From Eledone cirrhosa (Eukaryota), in NCBI GenBank assembly GCA_964016885.1, contig OZ024742.1:215636001-215700000 (forward strand): DNA of 64,000 nt, written 5' to 3'. How positions within the stretch are numbered: position 1 is the stretch's first letter; every line of letters begins with the position of its first letter. The position numbers were made by a program, and so were the translations under genes. The notes beneath the pieces were generated by a model. It saw only the letters and a list, made by a program, of their open reading frames with translations. It did not search any database and was not told the origin of the DNA. Shown here in pieces: positions 1 through 36,350 of the stretch.

Positions 1-699
1 TTGTAGTGGTGTGTAGTTGCTGATAGTGAGATAGATGGTGGAGTGGTGTTTGTAGTGGTGTGTTGTTGCTGATAGTGAGATAGATGCTGGAGTGGTGTTT
101 GTAGTGGTGTGTTGTTGGTGATAGTTAGATAGTTGGTGGAGTGATGTTTGTAGTGGTGTGTTGTTGCTGATAGTGAGATAGATGGTGGAGTGGTGTTTGT
201 AGTGGTGTGTTGTTGGTGATAGTAGATAGATGGTGGAGTAGTGTGTGTAGTGATGTGTTGTTGGTGATAGTTAGATAGTTAGTGCAGTGGTGTTTGTAGT
301 GGTGTGTTGTTGGTGATAGTTAGATAGATGGTGGAATGGTGTTTGTAGTTGTGTGTTGTTTCTGATAGTTAGATAGTTGGTGGAGTGGTGTTTGTAGTGG
401 TGTCATGTTGCTGATAGTTAGATAGTTGGTGAAGTGGTCTTTGTAGTGGTTTGTTGTTGGTGATAGTTAGATAGTTGGTGGAGTGGTGTTTATAGTGGTG
501 TGTTGTTGGTGATAGTTAGATAGTTGGTGGAGTGGTGTTTGTAGTGGTGTGTTGTTGGTGATAGTTAGATAGTTGGTGGAGTGGTGTTTGTAGAGGTGTG
601 TTGTTGGTGATAGTGAGATAGATGGTGGAGTGGTGTTTGTAGTGGTGTGTTGTTGGTATAGTTATATAGTTGGTGAAGTGGTGTTTGTAGTGGTGTGTT

Positions 700-14000: not shown

Positions 14001-15999
14001 AGTGGTGTTTGTAGTGGTGTGTTGTTGGTGATAGTTAGATAGCTGGTGGAGTGCTGTTTGTAGTGGTGTGTTGTTGCTGATAGTTAGATAGTTGTTGGAG
14101 TGGTGTTTGTAGTGGTGTGTTGTTGCTGATATTTAGATAGTTGGTGGAGTGGTGTTTGTAGTGGTGTGTTGTTGCTGATAGTTAGATAGTTGATGGAGTG
14201 GTGTTTGTAGTGGTGTGTTGTTGCTTATAGTTAGATAGTTGGCGGAGTGGTGTTTGTAGTGGTGTGTTGTTGGTGATAGTTAAATAGATGGTGGAGTGGT
14301 GTTTGTAATGGTGTGTTGTTTGTGATAGTTAGATAGTATGTGGAGTGGTATTTGTAGTGGTGTGTTGTTGCTGATAGTTAGATAGAGGGTGGAATGGTGT
14401 TTGTAGTGGTGTGTTGTTGGTGATAGTTAGATAGTTGGTGGAGTGGTGTTTGTAGTGGTGCGTTGTAGGTGGTAGTTCGATAGATAGTGGAGTGGCGTTT
14501 GTAGTGGTGTGTTGTTGCCGATAGTCAGATAGATGTTGGAGTGGTGTTTGTAGTGGTGTGTTGTTGGTGATAGTTAGATAGTTGGTAAAGTTGTGTTTGT
14601 AGTGGTGTGTTGTTGGTGATAGTTAGATAGTTGGTGGAGTGGTGTTTGTAGTGGTGTGTTGTTGCTGATAGTGAGATAGATGGTGGAGTGGTGTTTGTAG
14701 TGGTGTGTTGTTGCTGATAGTGAGATAGATGCTGGAGTGGTGTTTGTAGTGGTGTGTTGTTGGTGATAGTTAGATAGTTGGTGGAGTGATGTTTGTAGTG
14801 GTGTGTTGTTGCTGATAGTGAAATAGATGGTGGAGTGGTGTTTATAGTGGTGTGTTGTTGCTGATAGTGAGATAGATGGTGGAGTGGTGTTTGTAGTGGT
14901 GTGTTGTTGGTGATAGTAGATAGATGGTGGAGTAGTGTGTAGTGATGTGTTGTTGGTGATAGTTAGATAGTTAGTGGAGTGGTGTTCGTAGTGGTGTGTT
15001 GTTGGTGATAGTTAGATAGATGGTGGAATGGTGTTTGTAGTTGTGTGTTGTTTCTGATAGTTAGATAGTTGGTGGAGTGGTGTTTGTAGTGGTGTCATGT
15101 TGCTGATAGTTAGATAGTTGGTGGAGTGGTGTTTATAGTGGTGTGTTGTTGGTGATAGTTAGATAGTTGGTGGAGTGGTGTTTGTAGTGGTGTGTTGTTG
15201 GTGATAGTTAGATAGTTGGTAGAGTGGTGTTTGTAGAGGTGTGTTGTTGGTGATAGTGAGATAGATGGTGGAGTGGTGTTTGTAGTGGTGTGTTGTTGCC
15301 GATAGTCAGATAGATGTTGGAGTGGTGTTTGTAGTGGTGTGTTGTTGGTGATAGTTAGATAGTTGGTAAAGTTGTGTTTGTAGTGGTGTGTTGTTGCTGA
15401 TAAATAGATAGTTGGTGGAGTGGTGTTTGTAGTGGTGTGTTGTTGGTGATAGATAGATAGTTGGTTGAGTGGTGTTTATAGTGGTGTGTTGTTGCTGATA
15501 GTTAGATAGTTGGTGGAGTGGTGTTTGGAGTGGTGTTTGTAGTGGTGTGTTGTTGCAGATAGTTAGATAGATGGTGGAGTGGTGTTGGTAGTGGTGTGGT
15601 GTTGCTGATAGTTAGATAGATGGTGGAGTGGTGTTTGTAGTGGTGTGGTGTTGCTGATATTTAGATAGTTGGTGGAGTGGTGTTTGTAGTGGTGTGGTGT
15701 TGGTGAGAGTTAGATAGTTGGTGGAGTGCTGTTTGTATTTGTGTGTTGTTGCAGATAGTTAGATAGTTGGTGGAGTGGTGTTTGTAGTGGTGTGTTGTTG
15801 GTGATAGTTAGATAGTTGGTGGGGTGGTGTTTGTAGTGGTGTGTTGTTGCTGATAGTAAGATAGATGGTGGAGTGGTGTTTGTAGTGGTGTGTTGTTGCT
15901 GATAGTGAGATAGATGTTGGAGTGGTGTTTGTAGTGGTGTGTTGTTGGTGATAGTTAGATAGCTGGTGGAGTGCTGTTTGTAGTGGTGTGTTGTCGCTG

Positions 16000-18900
16000 A
16001 TAGTTAGATAGAGGGTGGAATGGTGTTTATAGTGGTGTGTTGTTGGTGATAGTTAGATAGTTGGTGGAGTGGTGTTTGTAGTGGTGCGTTGTTGGTGGTA
16101 GTTCGATAGATAGTGGAGTGGTCTTTGTAGTGGTGTGTTGTTGCCGATAGTCAGATAGCTGGAGCAGTGGTGTTTGTAGTGGTGTGTTGTTGGTGATAGT
16201 GAGATAGTTGGTGGAGTGGTGTTTGTAGTGGTGTGTTGTTGCTGATAGTAAGATAGATGGTGGAGTGGTGTTTGTAGTGGTGTGTTGTTGCTGATAGTGA
16301 GATAGATGTTGGAGTGGTGTTTGTAGTGGTGTGTTGTTGGTGATAGTTAGATAGCTGGTGGAGTACTGTTTGTAGTGGTGTGTTGTTGCTGATAGTTAGA
16401 TAGTTGTTGGAGTGGTGTTTGTAGTGGTGTGTTGTTGCTGATATTTAGATAGTTGGTGGAGCGGTGTTTGTAGTGGTGTGTTGTTGCTGATAGTTAGATA
16501 GTTGATGGAGTGGTGTTTGTAGTGGTGTGTTGTTGCTGATGGTTAGATAGTTGGTGGAGTGGTGTTTGTAGTGGTGTGTTGTTGGTGATAGTTAAATAGA
16601 TGGTGGAGTGGTGTTTGTAATGGTGTGTTGTTTGTGATAGTTAGATAGTATGTGGAGTGGTGTTTGTAGTGGTGTGTTGTTGCTGATAGTTAGATAGAGG
16701 GTGGAATGGTGTTTGTAGTGGTGTGTTGTTGGTGATAGTTAGATAGTTGGTGGAGTGGTGTTTGTAGTGGTGCGTTGTTGGAGGTAGTTCGATAGATAGT
16801 GGAGTGGTGTTTGTAGTGGTGTGTTGTTGATGATAGTTAGATAGTTGGTGGAATGGTGTTTGTAGTGGTGTGTTGTTGGTGATAGTGAGATAGATGGTGG
16901 AGTGGTGTTTGTAGTGGTGTGTTGTTGGTGATAGTTAGATAGTTGGTGAAGTGGTGTTTGTAGTGGTGTGTTGTTGGTGATAGTTAGATAGATGGTGGAG
17001 TGGTGTTTGTAGTGGTGTGTTGTTGCGGATAGTTAGATAGTTGGTGGAGTGGTGTTTGTAGTGGTGTGTTGTTTGTGATTGTTAGATACTTGGTGCAGTG
17101 GTGTTTGTAGTGGTGTGTTGTTGGTGATAGTTAGATAGTTGGTGGAGTGGTATTTGTAGTGGTGTGTTGTTGCTGATAGTAAGATAGATGGTGGAGTGGT
17201 GTTTGTAGTGGTGTGTTGTTGCTGATAGTGAGAGAGATGTTGGAGTGGTGTTTGTAGTGGTGTGTTGTTGGTGATAGTTAGATAGCTGGTGGAGTGCTGT
17301 TTGTATTGATGTGCTGTTGCTGATAGTTAGATAGTTGTTGGAGTGGTGTTTGTAGTGGTGTGTTGTTGCTGATATTTAGATAGTTGGTGGAGTGGTGTTT
17401 GTAGTGGTGTGTTGTTGCTGATAGTTAGATAGTTGATGGAGTGGTGTTTGTAGTGGTGTGTTGTTGCTTATAGTTAGATAGTTGGTGGAGTGGTGTTTGT
17501 AGTGGTGTGTTGTTGGTGATAGTTAAATAGATGGTGGAGTGGTGTTTGTAATGGTGTGTTGTTTGTGATAGTTAGATAGTATGTGGAGTGGTGTTTGTAG
17601 TGGTGTGTTGTTGCTGATAGTTAGATAGAGGGTGGAATGGTGTTTGTAGTGGTGTGTTATTGGTGATAGTTAGATAGTTGGTGGAGTGGTGTTTGTAGTG
17701 GTGCGTTGTTGGTGGTAGTTCGATAGATAGTGGAGTGGTGTTTGTAGTGGTGTGTTGTTGCCGATAGTCAGACAGATGTTGGAGTGGTGTTTGTAGTGGT
17801 GTGTTGTTGGTGATAGTTAGATAGTTGGTAAAGTTGTGTTTGTAGTGGTGTGTTGTTGCTGATAATTAGATAGTTGGTGGAGTGGTGTTTGTAGTGGTGT
17901 GTTGTTGGTGATAGTGAGATAGATGGTGGAGTGGTGTTTGTAGTGGTGTGTTGTTGGTGATAGATAGATAGTAGTTTGAGTGGTGTTTATAGTGGTGTGT
18001 TGTTGCTGATAGTTAGATAGTTGGTGGAGTGGTGTTTGGAGTGGTGTTTGTAGTGGTGTGGTGTTTGTAGTGGTGTGGTGTTGCTGATAGTTAGATAGAT
18101 GGTGGAGTGTTCTTTGTAGTGGTGTGGTGTTGGTGATATTTAGATAGTTGGTGGAGTGCTGTTTGTAGTGGTGTGTTGTTGCAGATAGTTAGATAGTTGG
18201 TGGAGTGGTGTTTGTAGAGGTGTGGTGTTGCTGATAGTTAGATAGTTGGTGGAGTGTTCTTTGTAGTGGTGTGGTGTTGGTGATAGTTAGATAGTTGGTG
18301 GAGTGCTGTTTGTAGTGGTGTGTTGTTGCAGATAGTTAGATAGTTGGTGGAGTGGTGTTTGTAGTGGTGTGTTGTTGCTGATAGTTAGATAGATGGTGGA
18401 GTGGTGTTTGTAGTAGTGTGTTGTTGGTGATAGTTAGATTGTTGGTGGAGTGCTGTTTGTAGTGGTATGTTGTTGGTGATAGTTAGATAGTTGGTGGAGT
18501 GGTGTTTGTAATGGTGTGTTGTTGCTGATAGTTAGATAGATGGTGGAGTGGTGTTTGTAGTGGTGTGTTGTTGCTGATAGTTAGATAGTTGGTGGAGTGG
18601 TGTTTGTAGTGGTGTGTTGTTGGTGATAGATAGATAGTTGGTTGAGTGGTGTTTATAGTGGTGTGTTGTTGCTGATAGTTAGATAGTTGGTGGAGTGGTG
18701 TTTGGAGTGGTGTTTGTAGTGGTGTGTTGTTGCAGATAGTTAGATAGATGGTGGAGTGGTGTTGGTAGTGGTGTGGTGTTGCTGATAGTTAGATAGATGG
18801 TGGAGTGGTGTTTGTAGTGGTGTGGTGTTGCTGATATTTAGATAGTTGGTGGAGTGGTGTTTGTAGTGGTGTGGTGTTGGTGAGAGTTAGATAGTTGGTG

Positions 18901-21900
18901 GAGTGCTGTTTGTATTTGTGTGTTGTTGCAGATAGTTAGATAGTTGGTGGAGTGGTGTTTGTAGTGGTGTGTTGTTGGTGATAGTTAGATAGTTGGTGGG
19001 GTGGTGTTTGTAGTGGTGTGTTGTTGCTGATAGTAAGATAGATGGTGGAGTGGTGTTTGTAGTGGTGTGTTGTTGCTGATAGTGAGATAGATGTTGGAGT
19101 GGTGTTTGTAGTGGTGTGTTGTTGGTGATAGTTAGATAGCTGGTGGAGTGCTGTTTGTAGTGGTGTGTTGTTGCTGATAGTTAGATAGTTGTTGGAGTGG
19201 TGTTTGTAGTGGTGTGTTGTTGCTGATATTTAGATAGTTGGTGGAGTGGTGTTTGTAGTGGTGTGTTGTTGCTGATAGTTAGATAGTTGACGGAGTGGTG
19301 TTTGTAGTGGTGTGTTGTTGCTTATAGTTAGATAGTTGGTGGAGTGTTGTTTGTAGTGGTGTGTTGTTGGTGATAGTTAAATAGATGGTGGAGTGGTGTT
19401 TGTAATGGTGTGTTGTTTGTGATAGTTAGATAGTATGTGGAGTGGTGTTTGTAGTGGTGTGTTGTCGCTGATAGTTAGATAGAGGGTGGAATGGTGTTTG
19501 TAGTGGTGTGTTGTTGGTGATAGTTAGATAGTTGGTGGAGTGGTGTTTGTAGTGGTGCGTTGTTGGTGGTAGTTCGATAGATAGTGGAGTGGTGTTTGTA
19601 GTGGTGTGTTGTTGCCGATAGTCAGATAGCTGGTGCAGTGGTGTTTGTAGTGGTGTGTTGTTGGTGATAGTTAGATAGTTGGTGGAGTGGTGTTTGTAGT
19701 GGTGTGTTGTTGCTGATAGTAAGATAGATGGTGGAGTGGTGTTTGTAGTGGTGTGTTGTTGCTGATAGTGAGATAGATGTTGGAGTGGTGTTTGTAGTGG
19801 TGTGTTGTTGGTGATAGTTAGATAGCTGGTGGAGTGCTGTTTGTAGTGGTGTGTTGTTGCTGATAGTTAGATAGTTGTTGGAGTGGTGTTTGTAGTGGTG
19901 TGTTGTTGCTGATATTTAGATAGTTGGTGGAGCGGTGTTTGTAGTGGTGTGTTGTTGCTGATAGTTAGATAGTTGATGGAGTGGTGTTTGTAGTGGTGTG
20001 TTGTTGCTGATGGTTAGATAGTTGGTGGAGTGGTGTTTGTAGTGGTGTGTTGTTGGTGATAGTTAAATAGATGGTGGAGTGGTGTTTGTAATGGTGTGTT
20101 GTTTGTGATAGTTAGATAGTATGTGGAGTGGTGTTTGTAGTGGTGTGTTGTTGCTGATAGTTAGATAGAGGGTGGAATGGTGTTTGTAGTGGTGTGTTGT
20201 TGGTGATAGTTAGATAGTTGGTGGAGTGGTGTTTGTAGTGGTGCGTTGTTGGAGGTAGTTCGATAGATAGTGGAGTGGTGTTTGTAGTGGTGTGTTGTTG
20301 ATGATAGTTAGATAGTTGGTGGAATGGTGTTTGTAGTGGTGTGTTGTTGGTGATAGTGAGATAGATGGTGGAGTGGTGTGTGTAGTGGTGTGTTGTTGGT
20401 GATAGTTAGATAGTTGGTGAAGTGGTGTTTGTAGTGGTGTGTTGTTGGTGATAGTTAGATAGATGGTGGAGTGGTGTTTGTAGTGGTGTGTTGTTGCGGA
20501 TAGTTAGATAGTTGGTGGAGTGGTGTTTGTAGTGGTGTGTTGTTTGTGATTGTTAGATACTTGGTGCAGTGGTGTTTGTAGTGGTGTGTTGTTGGTGATA
20601 GTTAGATAGTTGGTGGAGTGGTATTTGTAGTGGTGTGTTGTTGCTGATAGTAAGATAGATGGTGGAGTGGTGTTTGTAGTGGTGTGTTGTTGCTGATAGT
20701 GAGATAGATGTTGGAGTGGTGTTTGTAGTGGTGTGTTGTTGGTGATAGTTAGATAGCTGGTGGAGTGCTGTTTGTATTGGTGTGCTGTTGCTGATAGTTA
20801 GATAGTTGTTGGAGTGGTGTTTGTAGTGGTGTGTTGTTGCTGATATTTAGATAGTTGGTGGAGTGGTGTTTGTAGTGGTGTGTTGTTGCTGATAGTTAGA
20901 TAGTTGATGGAGTGGTGTTTGTAGTGGTGTGTTGTTGCTTATAGTTAGATAGTTGGTGGAGTGGTGTTTGTAGTGGTGTGTTGTTGGTGATAGTTAAATA
21001 GATGGTGGAGTGGTGTTTGTAATGGTGTGTTGTTTGTGATAGTTAGATAGTAAGTGGAGTGGTGTTTGTAGTGGTGTGTTGTTGCTGATAGTTAGATAGA
21101 GGGTGGAATGGTGTTTGTAGTGGTGTGTTATTGGTGATAGTTAGATAGTTGGTGGAGTGGTGTTTGTAGTGGTGCGTTGTTGGTGGTAGTTCGATAGATA
21201 GTGGAGTGGTGTTTGTAGTGGTGTGTTGTTGCCGATAGTCAGATAGATGTTGGAGTGGTGTTTGTAGTGGTGTGTTGTTGGTGATAGTTAGATAGTTGGT
21301 AAAGTTGTGTTTGTAGTGGTGTGTTGTTGCTGATAATTAGATAGTTGGTGGAGTGGTGTTTGTAGTGGTGTGTTGTTGGTGATAGTGAGATAGATGGTGG
21401 AGTGGTGTTTGTAGTGGTGTGTTGTTGGTGATAGATAGATAGTAGTTTGAGTGGTGTTTATAGTGGTGTGTTGTTGCTGATAGTTAGATAGTTGGTGGAG
21501 TGGTGTTTGGAGTGGTGTTTGTAGTGGTGTGGTGTTTGTAGTGGTGTGGTGTTGCTGATAGTTAGATAGATGGTGGAGTGTTCTTTGTAGTGGTGTGGTG
21601 TTGGTGATATTTAGATAGTTGGTGGAGTGCTGTTTGTAGTGGTGTGTTGTTGCAGATAGTTAGATAGTTGGTGGAGTGGTGTTTGTAGAGGTGTGGTGTT
21701 GCTGATAGTTAGATAGTTGGTGGAGTGTTCTTTGTAGTGGTGTGGTGTTGGTGATAGTTAGATAGTTGGTGGAGTGCTGTTTGTAGTGGTGTGTTGTTGC
21801 AGATAGTTAGATAGTTGGTGGAGTGGTGTTTGTAGTGGTGTGTTGTTGCTGATAGTTAGATAGATGGTGGAGTGGTGTTTGTAGTAGTGTGTTGTTGGTG

Positions 21901-22100
21901 ATAGTTAGATTGTTGGTGGAGTGCTGTTTGTAGTGGTATGTTGTTGGTGATAGTTAGATAGTTGGTGGAGTGGTGTTTGTAATGGTGTGTTGTTGCTGAT
22001 AGTTAGATAGATGGTGGAGTGGTGTTTGTAGTGGTGTGTTGTTGCTGATAGTTAGATAGTTGGTGGAGTGGTGTTTGTAGTGGTGTGTTGTTGGTGATAG
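16000..22100. repeat. 3,471-bp-offset higher-order duplication in the 49-mer array
   Basis: TTCGATAG variants at 16104/19575, 16790/20261 and 17721/21192. Boundaries are approximate. Confidence 0.85.
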
Positions 22101-25100
22101 TTAGATAGATGGTGGAGTGGTGTTTGTAGTGGTGTGTTGTTGCTGATAGTTAGATAGATGGTGGAATGGTGTTTGTAGTGGTGTGTTGTTGCTGATAGTT
22201 AGATAGATGGTGGAGTGGTGTTTGTAGTGGTGTGTTGTTGGTGATGGTTAGATAGTTGGTGGAGTGGTGTTTGTAGTGGTTTGTTGTTGGTGATAGTTAG
22301 ATAGTTGTTGGAATGGTGTTTGTAGTTGTGTGTTGTTGGTGATAGTTAGATAGTTGGTGGAGTGGTGTTTGTAGTGGTGTGTTGTTGGTCATAGTTAGAT
22401 AGTTGGTGCAGTGGTGTTTGTAGTGGTGTGTTTTTGGTGATAGTTAGATAGCTGGTGGAGTGCTGTTTGTAGTGGTGTGTTGTTGCTGATAGTTAGATAG
22501 TTGTTGGAGTGGTGTTTGTTGTGGTGTGTTGTTGCTGATATTTAGATAGTTGGTGGAGCGGTGTTTGTAGTGGTGTGTTGTTGCTGATAGTTAGATAGTT
22601 GATGGAGTGGTGTTTGTAGTGGTGTGTTGTTGCTGATAGTTAGATAGTTGGTGGAGTGGTGTTTGTAGTGGTGTGTTGTTGGTGATAGTTAAATAGATGG
22701 TGGAGTGGTGTTTGTAATGGTGTGTTGTTTGTGATAGTTAGATAGTATGTGGAGTGGTGTTTGTAGTGGTGTGTTGTTGCTGATAGTTAGATAGAGGGTG
22801 GAATGGCGTTTGTAGTGGTGTGTTGTTGGTGATAGTTAGATAGTTGATGGAGTGGTGTTTGTAGTGGTGCGTTGTTGGTGGTAGTTCGATAGATAGTGGA
22901 GTGGTGTTTGTAGTGGTGTGTTGTTGGTGATAGTTAGATAGTTGGTGGAGTGGTGTTTGTAGTGGTGTGTTGTTGGTGATAGTGAGATAGATGGTGGAGT
23001 GGTGTTTGTAATGGTGTGTTGTTTGTTATAGCTAGATAGATGGTGGAGTGGTGTTTGTAGTGGTGCCTTGTTGCTGATAGTCAGATAGTTGGTGGAGTGG
23101 TGTTTGTAGTTGTGTGTTGTTGGTGATAGTTAGATAGTTGGTGAAGTGGTGTTTGTAGTGGTGTGTTGTTGGTGATAGATAGATAGTTGGTGGAGTGCTG
23201 TTTGTAGTGGTGTGTTATTGGTGATAGTTAGATAGTTGCTGGAGTGGTGTTTGTAGTGATGTGTTGTGGTGATAGTTAGATAGTTGGTGGTGTGCTGTTT
23301 GTAGTGGTGTGTTGTTGCTGATAGTTAGATAGTTGGTGGAGTGGTGTTTGTAGTGGTGTGTTGTTGGTGATAGTTAGCTAGTTGGTGGAGTGGTGTTTGT
23401 AGTGGTGTGTTGTTGGTGATAGTTAGATAGTTGGTGGAGTGGTGTTTGTAGTGGTGTTTTGTTGGTGATAGTTAGATAGATGGTGGAGTGGTGTTTATAT
23501 TGATGTGTTGTTGGTGATAGTTAGATAGTTGGTGGAGTGGTGTTTGTAGTGGTGTGTTGTTGCTGATAGTTAAATAGTTGGTGAAGTGGTGTTTGTAGAG
23601 GTGTGTTGTTGTTATAGCTAGATAGATGGTGGAGTGGTGTTTGTAGTGGTGCCTTGTTGCTGATAGTCAGATAGTTGGTGGAGTGGTGTTTGTAGTGGTG
23701 TGTTGTTGATGATAGTTAGATAGTTGGTGAAGTGGTGTTTGTAGTGGTGTGTTGTTGGTGATAGATAGATAGTTGGTGGAGTGCTGTTTGTAGTGGTGTG
23801 TTATTGGTGATAGTTAGATAGTTGCTGGAGTGGTGTTTGTAGTGATGTGTTGTGGTGATAGTTAGATAGTTGGTGGTGTGCTGTTTGTAGTGGTGTGTTG
23901 TTGGTGATAGTTAGATAGTTGGTGGAGTGGTGTTTGTAGTGGTGTGTTGTTGGTGATAGTTAGCTAGTTGGTGGAGTGGTGTTTGTAGTGGTGTGTTGTT
24001 GGTGATAGTTAGATAGTTGGTGGAGTGGTGTTTGTAGTGGTGTTTTGTTGGTGATAGTTAGATAGATGGTGGAGTGGTGTTTGTATTGATGTGTTGTTGG
24101 TGATAGTTAGATAGTTGGTGGAGTGGTGTTTGTAGTGGTGTGTTGTTGGTGATAGTTAGATAGTTGTTGGAGTGGTGTTTGTAGAGGTGTGTTGTTGGTG
24201 ATAGTTAGATAGATGGTGGAGTGGTGTATGTAGTGGTGTGTTGTTGGTGATAGTTAGATAGATGGTGGAGTGGTGTTTGTAGTGGTGTGTTGTTGGTGAT
24301 AGTTAGATAGTTGGTGGAGTTGTGTTTGTAGTGGTGTGTTGTTGGTGATAGTTTAATAGTTAGTGGAGTGGTGTTTGTAGTGGTGTGTTGTTGCTGATAG
24401 TTATATAGTTGGTGGAGTGGTGTTTGTAGTGGTGTGTTGTTGGTGATAGTTAGATAGATGGTGGAGTGCTGTTTGTAGTGGTTTGTTGTTGCTGATAGTT
24501 AGATAGTTGGTGGAGTGGTGTTTGTAGTGGTGTGTTGTTGGTGATAGTTAGATAGATGGTGAAGTGGTGTTTGTAGTGGTGTGTTGTTGCTGATAGTTAG
24601 ATAGATGGTGGAGTGGTGTTTGTAGTGGTGTGTTGTTGGTGATATTTAGATAGTTGGTGAAGTGGTGTTTGTAGTGATGTGTTGTTGCTGTTAGTTAGAT
24701 AGTTGGTGGAGTGGTGTTTGTAGTGGTGTGTTGTTGGTGATAGTTAGATAGTGGGTGGAGTGGTGTTTGTAGTGGTGTGTTGTTGCTGATAGTTAGATAG
24801 TTGGTGGAGTGGTGTTTGTAGTGGTGTGTTGTTGCTGATAGTTAGATAGTTGGTGAAGTGGTGTTTGTAGTGGTGTGTTGTTGGTGATATTTAGATAGTT
24901 GGTGGAGTGCTGTTTGTAGTGGTGTGTGGTTCATGATAGTTACATAGTTGGTGGAGTGGTGTTTGTAGTGGTGTGTTGTTGGTGATATTTAGATAGTTGG
25001 TGAAGTGGTGTTTGTAGTGATGTGTTGTTGCTGATAGTTATATAGTTGGTGGAGTGGTGTTTGTAGTGGTGTGTTGTTGGTGATAGTTAGATAGCTGTTG

Positions 25101-25185
25101 CTACTGTTGGAGGTGGTGGTGGTTTGGCTGTTGTTGTTGTTGGTGGTGGTGCTGGTGTTTCGGCTGGTGTTGTTGGTGGTGGTGT

Positions 25186-27669
25186 TTAGGCTGTAGTTGT
25201 TGGTGGTGGTGGTGTTTTGGCTGTTGTTGTTGTTGGTGGTGGTGTTTTGGCTGTGGTTTTGTTGTTGGTGGTGTTTTGGATGTTGTTGGTGGTGGTGTTT
25301 GGCTGTAGTTGTTGTTGGTGGTGGTGGTGTTTTGGTTGTTGTTGTTGGTGGTGGTGTTTTGGCTGTAGTTGTTGTTGGTGGTGGTGTTTTGGCTGTTGTT
25401 GTCGTTGGTTGTGGTGTTTTGGCTGTTGTTGTTGTTGGTGGTGGTGGTGTTTTGGCTGTTGTTGTCGTTGGTGGTGGTGTTTTGGCTGTTGTTGTTGTTG
25501 GTGGTGGTGGTGTTTTGGCTGTTGTTGTTGTTGGTGGTAGTGTTTTGGCTGTTGTTGTTGGTGGAGGTGTTTTGACTGTAGTTGTTGGTGGTGGTGGTGG
25601 TGTTTTGGCTGTTGTTGTTGGTGGAGGTGTTTTGGCTGTAGTTGTTGGTGGTGGTGGAGCTTTGGCTGTTGTTGTTGGTGGTGGAGATGTTTTGGCTGTT
25701 GTTGTTGTTGGTGGTGTTTTGGCTGGTGTTGTTGGTGATGGCGTTTTGGCTGTTGTTGTTGGTGGAGTGTTTTGGCTGTTGTTGTTGTTGGTGGTGGTGT
25801 TTTTGTTGTTGTTGTTGGTGGTGGTGTTTTGGCTGTTGTTGTTGTTGTTGGTGGTGTTTTGGCTGTTGTTGTTGGTGGTGGTGTTGTTTTGGCTGTTGTT
25901 GTTGTTGGTGGTGGTGTTGTTTTGGCTGTTGTTGTTGTTGGTGGTGGTGTTTTGGCTGGTGTTGTTGGTGGTGGTGTTTTGGCAGTAGTTGTTGTTGGTG
26001 GTGGTGGTGGTGTTTTGGCTGTTGTTGTTGTTGATGATGTTTTGGCTGTTGTTGTTGGTGGTGGTGTGTTGGCTGTTGTTGGTGGTGGAGTTTTGGCTGT
26101 TGTTGTTGGTGGTGGAGGTGTTTTGGCTGTTGTTGTTCGTGGTGGTGCTTTGGCTGTTGTTGTTATTGGTGGTGGTGTTTTGGCTGTTGTTGTTTGTGGT
26201 GGTGTTTTGGCGGTAGTTGTTGGTGGTGGTGGTGTTTTGGCTGTAGTTGTTGTTGGTGGTGGTGTTTTGGCTGTTGTTGTTGTTGTTGGTGGTGGTGTTT
26301 TGGCTGGTGTTGTTGTAGGTGGTGTTTTGGCTGTAGTTGTTGTTGGTGTGGGTGGTGTTTTGGCTGTTGTTGTTGCTGGTGGTGTTTTGGCTGTTGTTGT
26401 TGCTGGTGGTGGTGTTTTGTCTGTTGTTGTTGTTGGTGGTGGTGGTGTTTTGGCTGTTGTTGTTGGTGGTGGTGTTTTGGCTGTAGTTGTTGTTGGTGGT
26501 GGTGGTGTTTTGGCTGCAGTTGTTGTTGGTGGTTGTGTTTTGGCTGTAGTTGTCTGTGGTGGTTGTGTTTTGGCTGTAGTTGTTGGTGGTGGTGGTGTTT
26601 TGGCTGTTGTTGTTGTTGGTGGTGTTGGTGTTTTGGCTGGTGTTGTTGGTGGTGGAATTTTGACTGTAATTGTTGTTGGTGGTGGTGTTTTGGCTGTTGT
26701 TGTTGTTGGTTGTGGTGGTGTTTTACCTGTCGTTGTTGTTGGTGGTTGTGTTTTGGCTGTAGTTGTTATTGGTGGTGGTGTATTTGGTGGTGGTGTTTTG
26801 GCGGTTGTTGTTGGTGGAGGTGTTGTGGCTGTTGTTGTTGTTGGTGGTTGTGTTCTGGCTGGTGATGTTGGTGGTGGAGGTGTTTTGGCTGTTGTTGTTG
26901 TTGTTGGTGGTGGTGTCTTGGGTGTTGTTGTTGTTGGTCGTGGTGTTTTGGCTGTTGTTGTTGCTGGTGGTGGTGTTTTGGCTGTTGTTGTTGTTGGTGG
27001 TGCTGTTTTGGCTGTAGTTCTTGTTGTTGTTGTTGGTGGTGGTGTTTTGGCTGTTGTTGTTGCTGGTGGTGGTGTTTTCGCTGTAGTTGTTGTTGTTGGT
27101 GGTTGTGTTTTGGCTGTTGTAGTTGTTGGTGGTGGTGTTTTGGCTGTAGTTGTTGTTGGTGGTGGTGTTTTACCTTTTGTTGTTGTTGGTCGTTGTGTTT
27201 TGGCTGTAGTTGTTGTTGGTGGTGGTGTCTTGGGTGTTGTTGTTGTTGGTCGTGGTGTTTTGGCTGTTGTTGTTGCTGGTGGTGGTGTTTTGGCTGTAGA
27301 TGTTGTTGTTGGTGGGGTTTTGGCTGTAGTTGTTGTTGTTGGTGGTGGTGGTGTTTTGGCTGTTGTTGTTGTTGGTGGTGCTGTTTTGGCTGTAGTTCTT
27401 GTTGTTGTTGTTGGTGGTGGTGTTTTGGCTGTTGTTGTTGCTGGTGGTGGTGTTTTCGCTGTAGTTGTTGTTGTTGGTGGTTGTGTTTTGGCTGTTGTAG
27501 TTGTTGGTGGTGGTGTTTTGGCTGTAGTTGTTGTTGGTGGTGGTGTTTTACCTTTTGTTGTTGTTGGTCGTTGTGTTTTGGCTGTAGTTGTTGTTGGTGG
27601 TTTTGTTTTGGCTGTTGTTGTTGTTGTTTGTGGTGGTGTTTTAGTTGTTGTTGTTGTTGGTGTGGTGTT
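25186..27669 (-). other. Stop-to-stop open frame of 827 codons without ATG: PT-rich block, then Q/H-rich block, short T/N block, back to PT
   Basis: Bounded by TAA at 27670-27672 and TAA at 25186-25188, which are 2,484 nt apart and in the same frame. Three 1-nt deletions (~25768, ~25298, ~25258) sum to 3. I found no stop between them by eye. Confidence 0.6.
26980..27600. repeat. 378-bp in-frame local duplication, also present in copy B near 35670-36290
   Basis: Rare variants recur 378 bp apart: GCTGTTTTGGCTGTAGTTCTT at 27002/27380, TTTTCGCT at 27079/27457, TTACCTTTT at 27172/27550. Confidence 0.85.
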
Positions 27670-30600
27670 TTAGTTGTTGTTTTTGGTGGTGGTTGTGTTT
27701 TGGCTGTTGTTGTTGTTGATGGTAATGTTTTGGCTGTTGTTGTTGGTGGTGGTGTTTTGGCTGTTGTTGTTGGTGGAGGTGGTGTTTTGGCTGTTGTTGT
27801 TGGTGGTGTCGGTGTTTTGGCTGTTGTTGTTGTTGGTGGTGGTGTTTTGGCTGTTGTTGTTGGTAGTGGTGTTATGGCTGTTGTTGTTTGTGGTGGTTGT
27901 GTTTTGGCTGTAGTTGTTGGTGCTAGTGGTGTTATTGTTTTTGTTGTTGTTGTTGGTGGTGGTGTTTTGGCTGTTGTTGTTGTTGTCGGTGGAGGTGTTT
28001 TGGCTGTTGTTGTTGTTTGTGGTGGTGTTTTGGCTGTTGTTGTTGTTGGTGGTGTTTTGGCTGTTGTTGTTGGTGGTGGTGTTGTTTTGGCTGTTGTTGT
28101 TGTTGGTGGTGGTGGTGTTTTGGCTGGGGTTGTTGGTGGTGGTGTTTTGGCAGTAGTTGTTGTTGTTGTTGGTGGTGTTTTGGCTGTTGTTGTTGGTGGT
28201 GGTGTGTTGGCTGTTGTTGGTGGTGGAGTTTTGGCTGTTGTTGTTGGTGGTGGAGGTGTTTTGGCTGTTGTTGTTCGTGGTGGTGTTATGGCTGTTGTTG
28301 TTTGTGGTGGTGTTTTGGCGGTAGTTGTTGGTGGTGGAGGTGTTTTGGCTGTAGTTGTTGTTGGTGGTGGTGTTTTGGCTGTTGTTGTTGTTGTTGGTTG
28401 TGGTGTTTTGGCTGGTGTTGTTGTAGGTGGTGTTTTGGCTGTAGTTGTTGTTGGTGTGGGTGGTGTTTTGACTGTTGTTGGTGGTGGTGTTGGTTTTTGG
28501 CTGTTGTTGTTGGTGGTGTTGTTTTGGCTAAAGTTGTTATTGTTGGTGGTGGTGTTTTGGCTGCTGTTGTTGCTGGTGGTGGTGTTTTGGCTGTTGTTGT
28601 TGGTGGTGGTAGTGTTTTGGCTGTTGTTGGTGGTGGTGTTGGCTTTTGGCTGTTGTTGTTGGTGGTTGTGTTTTGGCTGTTGTTGGTGGTGGAGTTTTGG
28701 CTGTTGTTGTTGTTGTTGGTGGTGGTGTTTTGGCTGGTGTTGTTGGTGGTGTTGTTTTGGCTGAAGTTGTTGTTGTAGGTGGTGGTGTTTTGGCTGTTGT
28801 TGTTGCTGGTGGTGGTGTTTTGGCTGTTGTTGTTGGTGGTGGTGTTTTGGCTTTAGTTGTTGTTGGTGGTGGTGGTGTTTTGGCTGCAGTTGTTGTTGGT
28901 AGTTATGTTTTGACTGTAGTTGTCGGTGGTGGTTGTGTTTTGGCAGTAGTGGTTGGTGGTGGTGGTGTTTTGGCTGTTGTTGTTGTTGGTGGTGATGGTG
29001 TTTTGGCTGGTGTTGTTGGTGGTGGTATTTTGACTGTAGTTGTGGTTGGTGGTGGTGTTTTGGCTGTTGTTGTTGGTTGTGATGGTGTTTTACCTGTTGT
29101 TGTTGTTGGTGGTTGTGTTTTGGCTGTAGTTGTTGGGGGTGGTTTTGTTTTGGCTGTTGTTGTTGTTGTTGGTGGTGGTGTTTTGTCTGTTGTTGTTGTT
29201 GGTGGTGATGGTGTTTTGGCTGATGTTGTTGGTGGTGGTATTTTGACTGTAGTTGTTGTTGGTGGTGGTGTTTTGGCTGTTGTTGTTGTTGGTGGTGGTG
29301 GTGTTTTACCTGTTGTTGTTGTTGGTGGTTGTGTTTTGGCTGTAGTTGTTGGGGGTGGTTTTGTTTTGGCTGTTGTTGTTGTTGGTGGTGGTGGTGTTTT
29401 AGTTTTTCTTGTTGTTGGAGGCGGTGTTTTAGTTGTTGTTTTTGGTGGTGGTAGTGTTTTGGCAGTTGTTGTTGATGGTGGTGTTTTGGCTGTTGTTGTT
29501 GGTGGCGGTGGTGTTTTGGCTGTTTTTGTTGGTGGTGGTGTTTTGGCTTTTGTTGTTGGTGGTGGTGTTTTGGCAGTTGTTGTTGGTGGTGGTGGTGTTA
29601 TTGCTGTTGTTGTTGGCGGTGGTGTTTTCGCAGTAGTTGTTGTTGGTGGTGGTGTTTTGGCTGTAGTTGTTTGTCGTGGTGTTTTATCTGTTGTTGTCGT
29701 TGGTGGTGGAGGTGTTTTGGCTGTTGTTGTTGTTGGTGGAGGTGTTTTGGCTGTTGTTGTTGGTGGTGGTGGTGGTGTTTTGGCTGTAGTTGTTGGTGGT
29801 GGTGTTTTGGCTGTAGTTGTTACTGGTGGTGGTGTTTTTGGTGGTGGTGTTTTGGCGGTTGTTGTTGTAGGTGGAGGTGTTTTGGCTGTTGTTGTTGGTG
29901 GTGGTGTTTTGGTTGTTGTTGTTGGTGGAGGTATTTTGGCTGTAGTTGTTGCTGGTGGTGGTGGTGTTTTAGCTGCTGATGTTGTTGATGGTGGTGTTTT
30001 GGCTGTAGTTGTTGTTGGTGGTGGTGGTATTTTAGCTGCTGTTGTTGTTGGTGGTGGTGTTTTGGCTGTAGTTGTTGTTGTTGGTGGTGGTGTTTTGGCT
30101 GCAGTTGTTGTTGGTGGTTGTGTTTTGGCTGTAGTTGTTGGTAGTGGTGGTGTTTTGGCTGTTGTTGTTGTTGGTGGTGATGGTGTTTTGGCTGGTGTTG
30201 TTGGTGGTGGTATTTTGGCTGTTGTTGTTGTTGGTTGTGGTGTTTTACCTTTTGTTGTTGTTGGTGGTTGTGTTTTGACTGTAGTTGTTGGGGGTGGTTT
30301 TGTTTTGGCTGTTGTTGTTGTTGTTGTTGGTGGCGGTGTTTTAGTTGTTGTTTTTGGTGGTGGTAGTGTTTTGGCGGTTGTTGTTGTTGATGGTGGTTTT
30401 TTGGCTGTTGTTGTTGGTGGTGGTGTTTTGGCTGTTGTTGTTGGGGGAGGTGGTGTTTTGGCTGTTGTTGTTGGTGGTGGTGGTGTTTTGGCTGTTGTTG
30501 TTGTTGGTGGTGTTTTGGCTTTTGTTGTTGGTGGTGGTGTTTTGGCTGTTCTTGTTGGTGGTGGTGGTGTTATTGCTGTTGTTGTTGGCGGTGGTGTTTT

Positions 30601-33080
30601 GGCTGTAGTTGTTGTTGGTGGTGGTGTTTTGGCTGTAGTTGTTTGTCGTGGTGTTTTGGTTGTTGTTGCTGGTGGAGGTGTTTTGGCTGTAGTTGTTTGT
30701 GGTGGTGTTGTTTTAGCTGTTGTTGTTGTTGGTGGTGGTGTTTTGGCTGTTGTTGTTATTGATGGTGCTGTTTTGGTTGTTGTTGGTGGAGGTGTTTTGG
30801 CTGTTGTTTTTGTTGGTGGTGGTGTTTTAGCTCGTGTTGTCGCTGGTGGTGTTTTATCTGTTGTTGTCGTTGGTGATGGTGGTGTTTTGGCTGTTGTTGT
30901 TGGTGGAGGTGTTTTGGCTGTTGTTGTTGGTGGTGGTGGGGGTGTTTTGGCTGTTGTTGTTGTTCGTGGTGGTGTTTTGGCTGTAGTTGTTGGTGGTGGT
31001 GTTTTGGCTGTAGTTGTTATTGGTGGTGGTGTTTTTGGTGGTGGTGTTTTGGCTGTTGTTGTTGTTGGTGGAGGTGTTTTGGCTGTTGTTGTTGGTGGTG
31101 GTGTGTTGGTTGTTGTTGTTGGTGGAGGTGTTGTGGCTGTTGTTGTTGTTGGTGGTTGTGTTTTGGCTGGTGATGTTGGTGGTGGAGGTGTTTTGGCTGT
31201 TGTTGTTGGTGGTGGTGTTTTGGGTGTTGTTGTTGTTGGTAGTGGTGTTTTGGCTGTTGTTGTTGTTGGTGGTGGTATTTTGGCTGTAGTTGTTGTTGTT
31301 GGTGGGGTTTTGGCTGTCGTTGTTGTCGTTGGTGGTGGTGGTGTTTTTGCTGTTGTCGTTGTTGGTGGTGCTCTTTTGGCTGTAGTTCTTGTTGTTGTTG
31401 GTGGTGGCGTTTTGGCTGTTGTTGTTGTTAGTGGTGGTGTTTTCGCTGTAGTTGTTGTTGTTGGTGGTTGTGTTTTGGCTGTTGTTATTGTTGCTGGTGG
31501 TGTTTTGGCTGCAGTTGTTGTTCTTGGTGTTGGTGTTTTGGCTATTGTTGTTGGTGGTGGTGTTTTGGCTGTAGTTGTTGTAGGTGGTGGTGGTTATGTT
31601 TTGGCTGTTGTAGTTGTTGGTGGTGGTGTTTTGGCTGTTGTTGTTGTTGGTGGTGGTATTTTGGATGTTTTTGTTGGTGGTGGAGGTGTATTGGCTGTAG
31701 TTGTTGTTGGTGGTGGTGTTTTGGCTGTTGTTGTTGGTGGAGGTGGTGTTTTAGCTGTAGTTCTTGTTGTTGGTGGTGGTGTTTTGTCTGTAATTGTTGT
31801 TGGTGGTGGTGTTTTACCTGTTGTTGTTGTTGGTCGTTTTGTTTTGGCTGTAGTTGTTGGTGGTGGTTTTGTTTTGGCTGTTGTTGTTGCTGGTGGTGGT
31901 GGTGTTTTAGTTGTTGTTGTTGTTGGTGTGGTGTTTTAGTTGTTGTTTTTGGTGGTGGTTGTGTTTTGGCTGTTGTTGTTGTTGATCGTAATGTTTTGGC
32001 TGTTGTTGTTGGTGGTGGTGTTTTGGCTGTTGTTGTTGGTGGTAGTGTTTTGGCTGTTGTTGTTGTTGGTGGTGGTGTTTTGGCTGTTGTTGTTGGTGGT
32101 TGTGTTATGGCTGTTGTTGTTGTTGGTGGTTGTGTTTTGTCTGTAGTTGTTGGTGCTGGTGGTGTTATTGCTGTTGTTGTTGTTGGTGGTGGTGTTTTGG
32201 CTGTAGTTGTCGTTGGTGGTGGTGTTTTGGCTGTAGTTGTTGGTCGTGGTGTTTTGGTCGTTCTTGTTGTTGGTGTAGGTGTTTGGCTGTAGTTGTTAGT
32301 GGTGGTGGTGTTTTAGCTGTTGTTGTTGTTGGTGGTGGTGTTTTGGCTGATGTTGTTGTTGGTGGTGTTTTGGCTGTTGTTGTTGTTGGTGGTGGTGTTT
32401 TGGCTGTTGTTGTTGTTGGTTGTGGTGGTGTTTTGGCTGGTGTTGTTGGTGGTGGGGTTTTGGCAGTAGTTGTTGTTGGTGGCGGTGGTGTTTTGGCTGT
32501 TGTTGTTGGTGGTGTTTTGGCTATTGTTGTTGGTGGTGGTGTGTTGGCTGTTGTTGGTGATGGAGTTTTGGCTGTTGTTGTTGGTGGTGGAAGTGTTTTG
32601 GCTGTTGTTGTTCGTGGTGGTGCTTTGGCTGTTGTTGTTATTGGTGGTGGTGTTTTGGCTGTTGTTGTTGGTGGTGGTGTTTTGGCGGTAGTTCTTGGTG
32701 GTGGTGGTGTTTTGGCTGTAGTTGTTGTTGGTGGTGGTGTTTTGGCTGTTGTTGTTGTTGGTGGTGGTGGTGTTTTGGCTGTAGTTGTTGTTGGTGGTGG
32801 TGGTGGTGTTTTGGCTGTTGTTGGTGGCGGTGTTGGTTTTTGGCTGTTGTTGTTGATGGTTGTGTATTGACTGTTGTTGGTGGTGGAGGTGTTTTGGCTG
32901 TTGTTGTTGGTGGTGGTGTTGTTTTGGATGCAGTTGTTGTTGTTGGTGGTGGTGTTTTAGCTGCTGTTGTTGTTGGTGGTGGTGTTTTGGCTGTAGTTGT
33001 TGTTGGTGGTGGAGGTGTTTTGGCTGCAGTTGTTGTAGAAGGTAGGTGTTTTAGCTGTTGTTTTATTTGGTGGTTGTGTT

Positions 33081-36000
33081 TTGGCTGTAGTTGTTGGTGG
33101 TGGTTGTGTTTTGGCTGTAGTTGTTGGTGGTGGAGGTGTTTTGGCTGTTGTTGTTGTTGGCGGTGATCGTGTTTTGGCTGGTGTTGTTGGTGGTGGTGTT
33201 TTGACTGTAGTTGTTGGTGGTGGTGGTGTTTGGACTGTTGTTGTTGTTGGTGGTGGTGTTTTACCTGTTTTTGTTGTTGGTGGTTGTGTTTTGGCTGTAG
33301 TTGTTGGTGGTGGTTTTGTTTTGGCTGTTGTTGTTGTTGGTGGTGGTGGTGTTTTAGCTGTTGTTGTTGTTGGTGATGTTGTTTTAGTTGTTGTTGATGG
33401 TGGTGTTTTGGCTGTTGTTGTTGGTGATGGTGTTTTGGCTGTTGTTGTTGGTGGTGGTGGTGTTTTGGCTGTTGTTGTTGGTGGTGGTTGTGTTTTGGCT
33501 TTTGTTGTTGGTGGTGGTGTTTTGGCTGTTGTTGTTGGTGGTGGTGGTGTTATTGCTGTTGTTGTTGTTGGTGGCGGTGTTTTGGCTGTAGTTGTTGTTG
33601 GTGGTGGTGTTTTGGCTATAGTTGTTGGTCGTGGTGTTTTGGTTGTTGTTGCTGGTGGAGGTGTTTTGGCTGTTGTTGTTTGTGGTGGTGGTGGTGTTTT
33701 GGCTGTTGCTGTTGTTGATGGTGCTGTTTTGTTTGTTGTTGTTTTTGGTGGAGGTGTTTTTGCTGTTGTTTTTGTTGGTGGTGGTGTTTTAGCTCTTGTT
33801 GTCGTTGGTGGTGTTTTATCTGTTGTTGTCGTTGGTGGTGGTGGTGTTTTGGCTGTTGTTGTTGTTGGTGGAGGTGTTTTGGCTGTTGTTGTTGGTGGTG
33901 GTGGTGGTGTTTTGGCTGTAGTTGTTGGTGGTGGTGTTTTGGCTGTAGATGTTATTGGTGGTGGTGTTTTTGGTGGTGGTGTTTTGGCTGTTGTTGTTGT
34001 TGGTGGAGGTGTTTTGGCTGTTGTTGGTGGTGGTGTTTTGATTGTTGTTGTTGGTGGCGGTGTTGTGGCTGTTGTTGTTGTTGGTGGTTGTGTTTTGGCT
34101 GTAGTTGTTGATGGTGGAGTTTTGGCTGTAGTTGTTGGTGGTGTTGTTTTGGCTGTAGTTGTTGTTGGTGGTGGAGGTGTTTTGGCTGCAGTTGTTGTAG
34201 GTGGTGGTGTTTTAGCTGTTGTTTTTGTTGGTGGTTGTGTTTTGGCTGTAGTTGTTGGTGGTGGTTGTGTTTTGGCTGAAGTTGTTGGTGGTGGTATTTT
34301 GGCTGTTGTTGTTGTTGGTGGTGATGGTGTTTTGGCTGGTGTTGTTGGTGGTGGTGTTTTGACTGTAGTTGTTGGTGGTGGTGGTGTTTGGGCTGTTGTT
34401 GTTGTTGGTGGTGCTGTTTTACCTGTTTTTGTTGTTGGTGGTTGTGTTTTGGCTGTAGTTGTTGGTGGTGGATTTGTGTTGGCTGTTGTTGTTGTTGTTG
34501 GTGGTGGTGTTTTAGCTGTTGTTGTTGTTGGTGGTGGTGTTTTAGTTGTTGTTTTTGGTGGTGGTAGTGTTTTGGCTGTTGTTGTTGTTGAAGGTGGTGT
34601 TTTGGCTGTTGTTGTTGGTGGTGGTTGTGTTTTGGCTGTTGTTGTTGTTGGTGGTAGTGTTTTGGCTTTTGTTGTTGGTGGTGGTGTTTTGGCTGTTGTT
34701 GTTGGTGGTGGTGGTGTTTTTGCTGTTGTTGTTGTTGGTGGTGGTGTTTTGGCTGTAGTTGTTGGTCGTGGTGTTTTGGTTGTTGTTGCTGGTGGAGGTG
34801 TTTTGGCTGTAGTTGTCTGTGGTGGTGGTGTTTTAGCTGTTGTTGTTGCTGTTGGTGGTGCTGTTTTGGTTGTTGTTGATGTTGGTGGAGGTGTTTTGGC
34901 TGTTATTTTTGTTGGTGGTTGTGTTTTAGCTCTTGTTGTCGTTGGTGGTGTTTTATCTGTTGTTGTCGTTGATGGTGGTGGTGTTTTGGCCGTTGTTGTT
35001 GTTTGTGGAGTTGTTTCGGCTGTAGTTGTTGGTGGTGGTGTTTTGGCTGTAGTTGTTATTGGTGGTGGTGTTTTTGGTGGTGGTGTTTTGGCTGTTGTTG
35101 TTGTTGGTGGAGGTATTTTGGCTGTTGTTGTTGGTGGTGGTGTTTTGATTGTTGTTGTTGGTGGAGGTGTTGTGGCTGTTGTTGTTGTTGGTGGTTGTGT
35201 TTTGGCTGTAGTTGTTGATGGTGGTGTTTTGGCTGGTGATGTTGGTGGTGGAGGTGTTTTGGCTGTTGTTGTTATTGGTGGTGGTGATTTGGGTGTTGTT
35301 GTTGTTGGTTGTGGTGTTTTGGCTGTTGTTGTTGGTGTTGGTGGTGTTTTGGCTCTAGTTGTTGTTGTTGGTGGTTTTTTGGCTGTAGTTGTTGTCGTTG
35401 GTGCTGGTTGTGTTTTGGCTGTTGTTGTTGTTGGTGGTGCTGTTTTGGCTGTAGTTCTTGTTGTTGGTGGTGGTGGTGTTTTGGCTGTTGTTGTTGTGGT
35501 TGGTGGTGTTTTCGCTGTAGTTGTTGTTGTTCGTGGTTGTGTTTTGGCTGTTGTTGTTGTTGCTGGTGTTGTTTTGGCTGTTGTTGTTGGTGGTGGTGGT
35601 TTTTTGGCTGTAGTTGTTGGTGGTGGTTTTGTTTTGGCTGTTGTTGTTGTTGCTGGTGGTGGTGTTTTGGCTGTTGTTGTTGTTGGTGGTGCTGTTTTGG
35701 CTGTAGTTCTTGTTGTTGTTGTTGGTGGTGGTGTTTTGGCTGTTGTTGTTGCTGGTGGTGGTGTTTTCGCTGTAGTTGTTGTTGTTGGTGGTTGTGTTTT
35801 GGCTGTTGTAGTTGTTGGTGGTGGTGTTTTGGCTGTAGTTGTTGTTGGTGGTGGTGTTTTACCTTTTGTTGTTGTTGGTCGTTGTGTCTTGGCTGTAGTT
35901 GTTGTTGGTGGTGGTGTCTTGGGTGTTGTTGTTGTTGGTCGTGGTGTTTTGGCTGTTGTTGTTGCTGGTGGTGGTGTTTTGGCTGTAGATGTTGTTGTTG

Positions 36001-36350
36001 GTGGGGTTTTGGCTGTAGTTGTTGTTGTTGGTGGTGGTGGTGTTTTGGCTGTTGTTGTTGTTGGTGGTGCTGTTTTGGCTGTAGTTCTTGTTGTTGTTGT
36101 TGGTGGTGGTGTTTTGGCTGTTGTTGTTGCTGGTGGTGGTGTTTTCGCTGTAGTTGTTGTTGTTGGTGGTTGTGTTTTGGCTGTTGTAGTTGTTGGTGGT
36201 GGTGTTTTGGCTGTAGTTGTTGTTGGTGGTGGTGTTTTACCTTTTGTTGTTGTTGGTCGTTGTGTTTTGGCTGTAGTTGTTGTTGGTGGTTTTGTTTTGG
36301 CTGTTGTTGTTGTTGTTTGTGGTGGTGTTTTAGTTGTTGTTGTTGTTGGT
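33081..36350 (-). other. Uninterrupted PT-rich open segment, about 1,090 codons of TTTAKTPPP-type repeat
   Basis: Antisense counterpart of + ORF 33081..36362. That translation shows no Y/H/Q, the residues that mark stops in the minus PT frame. Boundaries are approximate (frameshift sites). Confidence 0.55.

What the first reader, a model, noticed from the sequence alone, without database searches (positions are those of the whole stretch)
25040..25200. The PT reading frame runs in phase into the 49-bp satellite and ends on the satellite's own TAA
Seen: the minus strand across the junction reads GCC AAA CCA CCA CCA CCT CCA ACA GTA GCA ACA GCT ATC TAA CTA TCA CCA ACA ACA (AKPPPPPTVATAI*LSPTT). 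The TAA at 25087-25089 belongs to the first 49-mer, and there is no spacer between the arrays. Inference: the 25-kb satellite is an amplification of about 500-fold of the segment spanning the stop codon of the mucin-like ORF, i.e. a satellite born at a gene's end. Caveats: phase agreement has a 1-in-3 chance probability, and an AAA>TAA change at 25186-25188 stops the frame 33 codons earlier.
Basis: partly seen in the sequence, partly recalled or inferred. Interest (0 to 1): 0.75.

Follow-up and report, generated by a model that had tools for sequence, protein, structure and literature searches.

The report
Twin satellites mimicking a mucin ending
A 42-kb repeat that reads like a mucin protein runs straight into a 175-kb repeat found nowhere else in the genome as an exact match, but the first slips out of frame 48 times, so both are likely ordinary non-coding repeats that grew side by side, and the in-frame stop at their join is likely chance.

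Summary
The junction reads as described (TAA at 25087-25089, no spacer, earlier TAA at 25186-25188). But there is no 'PT reading frame' to end: the 41.8-kb Pro/Thr-like array changes frame 48 times and holds 10 stops, and only its last ~180 nt are in phase with the TAA. The shifts are inherited: 7 of 7 are shared by two copies of an 8.7-kb duplication. A Thr/Pro repeat exon beside a NIDO domain elsewhere in this assembly has 0 shifts and 0 stops in 40.6 and 41.4 kb. Because 49 is not a multiple of 3, every frame meets the satellite's single TAA within three units. It is 175 kb and about 3,560 units, not 25 kb and 500. Best reading: two local expansions of one GT-rich low-complexity patch. A long-dead mucin exon is not excluded (about 15%). 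The junction was not tested with reads; no RNA run of the species was listed. The scan earlier noted a similar mucin-mimicking satellite on this chromosome (e1-10318175, unchecked).

The parts
1..25093 (-). 49-bp tandem satellite; right-hand 25 kb of a 174.7-kb, 3,560-unit single-locus array (G000:C3:215,486,405-215,661,093)
   Evidence: mean 4.9% divergence from one consensus along its whole length; many kb-scale internal duplications
25045..25093 (-). First 49-mer, identical to consensus, directly abutting the PT array
25087..25089 (-). TAA at nt 5-7 of the 49-mer; the only minus-strand stop in the consensus; intact in 2,712 of 3,280 full-length units
25094..25270 (-). Last, partly decayed units of the PT array; the only stretch in phase with the TAA
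25186..25188 (-). AAA>TAA stop in the P/T phase, 33 codons before the satellite's TAA
25094..64000 (-). About 30-bp (27/30/33) array built of ACA and CCA runs with GCCAAA, translating as TTTTAKTPPP; 41.8 kb, 1,391 units, ends 2.9 kb right of the window; 48 frame switches, 10 stops
   Evidence: 77 of 77 genome-wide exact matches of a 27-nt motif lie in it
26953..44358 (.). Recent tandem duplication with period 8,689 bp (not a multiple of 3); 7 mismatches in 8,717 nt, no indel; 7 of 7 frameshifts shared by both copies

Best explanation
Two tandem arrays, each confined to this locus by exact-match counts, sit end to end; both are likely non-coding satellites that grew in place from one GT-rich low-complexity patch, and the in-frame TAA at their join is likely coincidence. 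Shown: both arrays share the strand bias of a 3.5-kb trinucleotide-rich patch that continues right of the PT array; the PT array tolerates and copies frameshifts; both arrays grew by kb-scale tandem duplications; the 49-mer array ends in one decayed unit. Inferred: a ~30-bp (ACA)n-GCCAAA-(CCA)n piece of the patch expanded to 42 kb by slippage (unit lengths vary in steps of 3) and unequal exchange; the 49 bp at its edge, perhaps a decayed PT unit, was duplicated once and expanded the same way to 175 kb. The Pro/Thr translation follows from ACA/CCA triplets, which cannot become stops by one substitution.
For: 48 frame switches and 10 stops in 41,841 nt, median in-phase stretch 458 nt, longest 3.7 kb, against 0 and 0 in 40,619 and 41,376 nt of a Thr/Pro repeat frame 2.6 kb upstream of a NIDO exon on C8, same tracker. 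Shifts are not random consensus errors: 7 of 7 shared between duplicate copies that differ by no indel, and 13 of 48 are one recurring unit variant. Non-triplet length changes 1.15/kb versus 1.10/kb in the 49-mer. Variation at codon positions 1, 2, 3 of the 15-nt anchor averages 0.069, 0.076, 0.082. Upstream 3.6 kb has 52-70 stops per frame, longest open stretch 143-175 codons, and its P/T-like part matches low-complexity patches on many chromosomes at about 70-76% identity. Pfam: only transposon domains above cut-off in 149 ORFs, none in 150 shorter ones. No NIDO (12 matches) or AMOP (4 matches) on C3. 690 of 690 and 77 of 77 exact motif matches are in these arrays. Both outer ends are matched by short-read contigs.
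Against: The unit keeps triplet phase in 1,342 of 1,390 spacings and uses the same ACA/CCA codon grammar as the control exon. pN/pS in the P/T frame is 0.74-0.76, below 1 (but 0.43-0.46 in another frame). An AATAAA starts 13 nt past the far end of the 49-mer array, where a 3' UTR would lie; 3.9% of random 30-nt flank windows have one. The Pfam scans covered 144 of 233 longer and 150 of 221 shorter filtered ORFs and would miss short or domain-less exons. The control was chosen because its samples were open, so it shows what the assembly can hold, not a typical rate. The 49-mer's likeness to the PT unit is weak (4 of 200 codon shuffles reach the score).
Confidence: 0.75

Rival explanations
1. 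The PT array is a long-dead giant mucin exon. After the gene died the array kept turning over and spread frameshifts, and the 49 bp spanning its stop codon was amplified into the satellite.
For: This genome has intact giant Thr/Pro repeat frames of the same codon grammar. Triplet phase kept in 1,342 of 1,390 spacings; pN/pS 0.74-0.76. TAA in phase in the first unit (1 in 3). AATAAA 13 nt beyond the array. A 215-codon frame with about 60 Pro/Thr-rich codons and two ATGs precedes the array.
Against: That upstream frame is out of phase with the first units and is generic low-complexity DNA; no long unique N-terminal frame as in the control; no host-gene Pfam domain in the ORFs scanned; no trace of frame selection relative to the 49-mer; the phase at the junction is set by the last of 48 shifts, so agreement says little about an ancestral frame.
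Confidence: 0.17
2. The PT array is a live mucin exon and the frameshifts are assembly errors.
For: 39 of 48 shifts are net -1 and several sit in short A or C runs, the kind of change long-read consensus errors make (recalled knowledge).
Against: Two copies 8,689 bp apart share 7 of 7 shifts and differ by no indel; 13 shifts are one recurring variant; the duplication period is itself not a multiple of 3; the control frame has none in 82 kb; 10 stops remain.
Confidence: 0.03
3. The junction is an assembly misjoin between two unrelated GT-rich arrays.
For: The junction itself was not tested with reads. In run X1 the left flank has about half the depth of the right flank (5.9 versus 12.8).
Against: No N gap; the junction carries unique decayed units and occurs once in the assembly; each array has only one other end, and both outer ends are matched by short-read contigs; each array is single-locus.
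Confidence: 0.05

Closest known systems
Locally amplified short-monomer satellite DNA / minisatellite (Ruiz-Ruano et al. 2016, PMC4935994; passages read)
   Same: [quoted passage not shown]
   Different: That model has dissemination before clustering; here exact-match searches find no copy outside the one array, and two different monomers expanded side by side.
OwlRep megasatellite from simple repeat HSAT6 (PMC5765563; abstract read)
   Same: A low-copy simple-repeat sequence tandemly amplified into a long array.
   Different: 187-bp unit, ancestor traced across primates, role in rod nuclei; here 30- and 49-bp units, no relative examined, no function shown.
CapA satellite from a NOS1AP intron (bioRxiv 10.1101/213868; abstract and opening text read)
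   Same: A satellite traced to a single-copy source sequence.
   Different: CapA is ~1,500 bp, spread through genomes, and its source gene is real; here no gene is demonstrated.
Mucin PTS-domain exon (Lang et al. 2006, PMC1552070; passages read); control locus G000:C8:46,257,360-46,339,554
   Same: Pro/Thr-rich translation from variable-length tandem repeats; ACA/CCA codon grammar like the C8 control.
   Different: PTS domains sit in one large open exon (or in repeat exons, chicken Muc13) with VWD, SEA, AMOP or similar domains and a signal sequence; this array is broken 48 times and no such domain was found nearby.

Membership tests
Mucin PTS-domain exon | Pro/Thr/Ser-rich tandem-repeat translation | tested here: met
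   ACA 39%, CCA 28% of 13,536 in-phase codons
Mucin PTS-domain exon | One continuous open frame across the repeat exon | tested here: not met
   48 switches, 10 stops in 41.8 kb; control 0 and 0 in 40.6 + 41.4 kb
Mucin PTS-domain exon | Start or N-terminal coding region in frame upstream | tested here: not met
   52-70 stops per frame in the upstream 3.6 kb; the 215-codon frame before the array is out of phase with it. An upstream spliced signal-peptide exon was not searched for
Mucin PTS-domain exon | Linked mucin domains (VWD, SEA, NIDO, AMOP, VWA) in neighbouring exons | tested here: inconclusive
   None in 149 + 150 ORFs (144 of 233 and 150 of 221 filtered); no NIDO or AMOP match on C3; short exons could be missed
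Mucin PTS-domain exon | Transcribed, polyadenylated mRNA and glycosylated protein | not testable with these tools
   No run on record as RNA was listed for the species label of the best holders
Satellite DNA (clustered tandem array) | Head-to-tail monomers in an array of many kb | tested here: met
   3,560 units in 174.7 kb; 1,391 units in 41.8 kb
Satellite DNA (clustered tandem array) | No reading-frame constraint | tested here: met
   Non-triplet length changes 1.10/kb (49-mer) and 1.15/kb (PT)
Satellite DNA (clustered tandem array) | Growth and homogenisation by multi-unit duplication | tested here: met
   8,689-bp duplication with 7 mismatches; many 1.7-22 kb offsets in the 49-mer; same consensus in 17 of 17 blocks
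Satellite DNA (clustered tandem array) | Heterochromatic or centromeric state | not testable with these tools
   No chromatin, methylation or FISH data

The most novel reading that the evidence does not exclude
The 42-kb array is the corpse of a giant mucin exon, and the 49 bp carrying its stop codon were amplified about 3,560-fold into a 175-kb single-locus satellite that pushed the old poly(A) signal 175 kb away: a satellite born from a gene's stop codon, with both original ends still readable.
Probability: 0.13. Interest if true: 0.5.

Novelty: new member of a known kind. Interest (0 to 1): 0.17.

Why it matters
As read here it is ordinary: two local satellites. Its use is practical. This genome holds real giant Thr/Pro repeat frames as well as look-alike satellites, and the frameshift count (48 in 42 kb versus 0 in 82 kb) separates them cleanly. 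The locus also keeps both ends of a single-locus 49-mer, so a relative's orthologous site could show the pre-amplification sequence. If the dead-exon reading were true it would link giant mucin exons to satellite birth and give a dated case of a satellite arising from a stop-codon segment.

Tried and rejected
Protein homolog search with 400 in-phase codons of the PT array: none of 7,990 scored candidates reached E 0.001; uninformative for a low-complexity query, and only 220-700 aa proteins were searched. A 56-nt idealised PT pattern was too strict (1 match) and was replaced by a 27-nt one. The self-BLAST printed nothing; duplications were found by k-mer diagonals instead. pN/pS on amplified units is pseudo-replicated and frame-dependent (0.76, 0.95, 0.46), so it was not used as a verdict. 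Stop depletion at the Lys codon is not measurable (TAA 3, CAA 6, GAA 10). Runs X4-X20 held 4-7% of the words; X4 laid 0 contigs on the right flank and three 31-nt pieces on the left, so it is not taken as a relative. RAD-seq run X22 laid nothing. Summed contig depth on the 49-mer (up to 84,616 versus 5.9) is not a copy number. The first 20 samples upstream of the C4 and C7 NIDO loci held no giant Thr/Pro frame; of the next 20, six (three on C8, three on C6) were open end to end and only C8 was measured. A transposon-internal origin was considered: the 2 kb next to the PT array matched only low-complexity patches (40 of 1,065 candidates scored) and the left flank only itself. Literature searches (listings and abstract starts only, apart from the four papers named) showed no description of this locus; I make no claim that stop-codon-derived satellites are absent from print.
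Full report
Observation. The window holds only two arrays: a 49-bp repeat at 1-25093 and a ~30-bp repeat from there to the end. The window lies at G000:C3:215,636,001-215,700,000 of a 3.0-Gb assembly. That the genome is octopus-like is a lead from a recalled SINE motif and from earlier AI notes; I did not test it.

True extent. Fetching 410 kb around the window shows that the 49-mer array spans 215,486,405-215,661,093 (174.7 kb, 3,560 units, 3,280 of exactly 49 nt, mean 4.9% from one consensus) and that the PT array spans 41.8 kb with 1,391 units, ending 2.9 kb right of the window. All 690 exact genome-wide matches of a 34-nt core of the 49-mer, and all 77 of a 27-nt PT motif, fall inside these arrays on one strand. 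Diverged short copies elsewhere are not excluded: the similarity search scored 40 of 255 candidates, and the matches listed were all in the array.

Is there a reading frame? The Pro/Thr phase switches 48 times and carries 10 stops in 41,841 nt; the median in-phase stretch is 458 nt and the one at the junction is 176-188 nt. The shifts are inherited. An 8,689-bp tandem duplication (window 26,953-44,358) has 7 mismatches and no indel in 8,717 nt, shares 7 of 7 shifts between its copies, and is itself not a multiple of 3; 13 of the 48 shifts are one recurring unit variant. Non-triplet length changes occur at 1.15 per kb, the same as the 1.10 per kb in the 49-mer array. Codon positions 1-3 of the anchor vary about equally; pN/pS is 0.74-0.76 in the P/T frame but 0.43-0.46 in another frame, and amplification pseudo-replicates these counts, so this test is weak both ways.

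Positive control. Earlier notes on this genome described giant intact mucin exons. I looked upstream of NIDO matches in 40 samples of 3 kb and measured one locus: C8:46,257,360-46,339,554, a Thr/Pro repeat frame of the same ACA/CCA grammar with variable 7-9-codon units, ending 2.6 kb before a NIDO exon. With the same tracker it has 0 switches and 0 stops in 40,619 nt and 41,376 nt on the two sides of a 200-N gap, and begins with unique coding-like sequence. It was picked because it was open, and its expression was not shown; it proves only that this assembly can hold frame through such a repeat.

Is the TAA special? The 49-mer consensus has one minus-strand stop, and 49 mod 3 = 1, so any frame entering the array meets that TAA within three units; the Asn/Thr frame ends on it in the third unit. 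Meeting it in the first unit is a 1-in-3 event, and the phase that does so is set by the last of 48 shifts and is already stopped 33 codons earlier.

Flanks. Right of the PT array lies 3.5 kb of mostly GT-rich trinucleotide low-complexity DNA with the same overall strand bias, then a broken LINE. It has 52-70 stops per frame; a 215-codon frame with about 60 Pro/Thr-rich codons precedes the array but is out of phase with it, and this part matches similar patches on many chromosomes at about 70-76%. Pfam found only endonuclease, reverse transcriptase and GIY-YIG domains plus one sub-threshold DUF in 149 ORFs (144 of 233 filtered ORFs of 70 aa or more within about 86 kb left and 107 kb right, plus 5 low-complexity ones), and one sub-threshold match in 150 of 221 minus-strand ORFs of 45-79 aa. 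NIDO and AMOP have no match on C3. Short exons could have been missed.

Origin of the 49-mer. At the far end the last unit is complete but decayed (39 of 49; its last 17 nt match at 10, a level reached by 0.5% of flank windows) and runs into unique DNA, so the array is likely an expanded tandem duplication of a 49-bp segment that began exactly at the PT array's edge (inference). The 49-mer resembles the PT unit slightly more than codon-shuffled PT sequence (4 of 200 shuffles reach the score), so it may be a decayed terminal PT unit.

Reads. Three runs of one sample hold 21-33% of the junction region's words; no run on record as RNA was listed for that species label. Two of them cover the right flank as one unspliced 972-nt contig that ends at the PT array's edge, at flat depth, and look like genomic DNA; a RAD-seq run of another sample matches part of it at 99% or more. 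A 470-nt contig joins the left flank to the decayed terminal 49-mer without differences. These runs may be the assembly's own sample. The junction between the arrays was not tested with reads; in the assembly it occurs once, has no gap and carries unique decayed units.

Mechanism and verdict. Most likely a compound (ACA)n/(CCA)n piece of a low-complexity patch expanded by slippage and unequal exchange into the 42-kb array, and the adjacent 49 bp expanded separately into 175 kb. This follows the de novo duplication and local amplification route described by Ruiz-Ruano et al. (PMC4935994, passages read), without the dissemination step; OwlRep (PMC5765563, abstract) and CapA (10.1101/213868, abstract and opening text) are traced examples of satellites from low-copy sources. 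The array fails the continuous-frame criterion for a mucin PTS exon (PMC1552070, passages read). A long-dead exon (0.17) cannot be excluded without a relative's orthologous locus. New member of a known kind; interest 0.17.

Noticed in passing
G000:C8:46,257,360-46,339,554 (L111-L119), minus strand: 82-kb Thr/Pro repeat reading frame, stop-free on both sides of a 200-N gap, upstream of a NIDO exon: a likely giant MUC4-like mucin exon. May be a locus noted earlier by the scan; used here as control.
   Followed up: partly
G000:C6:95,830,001-95,898,000 (L100-L102), plus strand: Three 3-kb samples over 68 kb upstream of a NIDO match are each open end to end with Ser/Thr-rich translation; a second candidate giant mucin exon.
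   Followed up: no
L036:6010-6417 versus L037:3077-3880: In run X1 the unique left flank has depth 5.9 and the right flank 12.8, with no second allele laid on the left; the left flank or the 49-mer array may be on one haplotype only. A filter effect is not excluded.
   Followed up: no
window 26953-44358: 8,689-bp near-perfect tandem duplication (7 mismatches); very recent, or a haplotype or assembly duplication.
   Followed up: partly
G000:C3:215,486,405-215,661,093: Recurrent 61-nt (52 copies), 48-nt (136) and 37-nt (20) variant units and many 1.7-22 kb internal duplications; no fixed higher-order period.
   Followed up: partly
L037:8500-10000 and L038:1-3800 (C3:215,708,500-215,713,800): Broken LINE on the plus strand (Exo_endo_phos and RVT_1 matches) about 6 kb right of the PT array; GIY-YIG fragments in L042 and L043.
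   Followed up: no
L036:6387-6392 region, just beyond the far end of the 49-mer array: AATAAA on the minus strand 13 nt past the last unit; chance level about 4%.
   Followed up: partly
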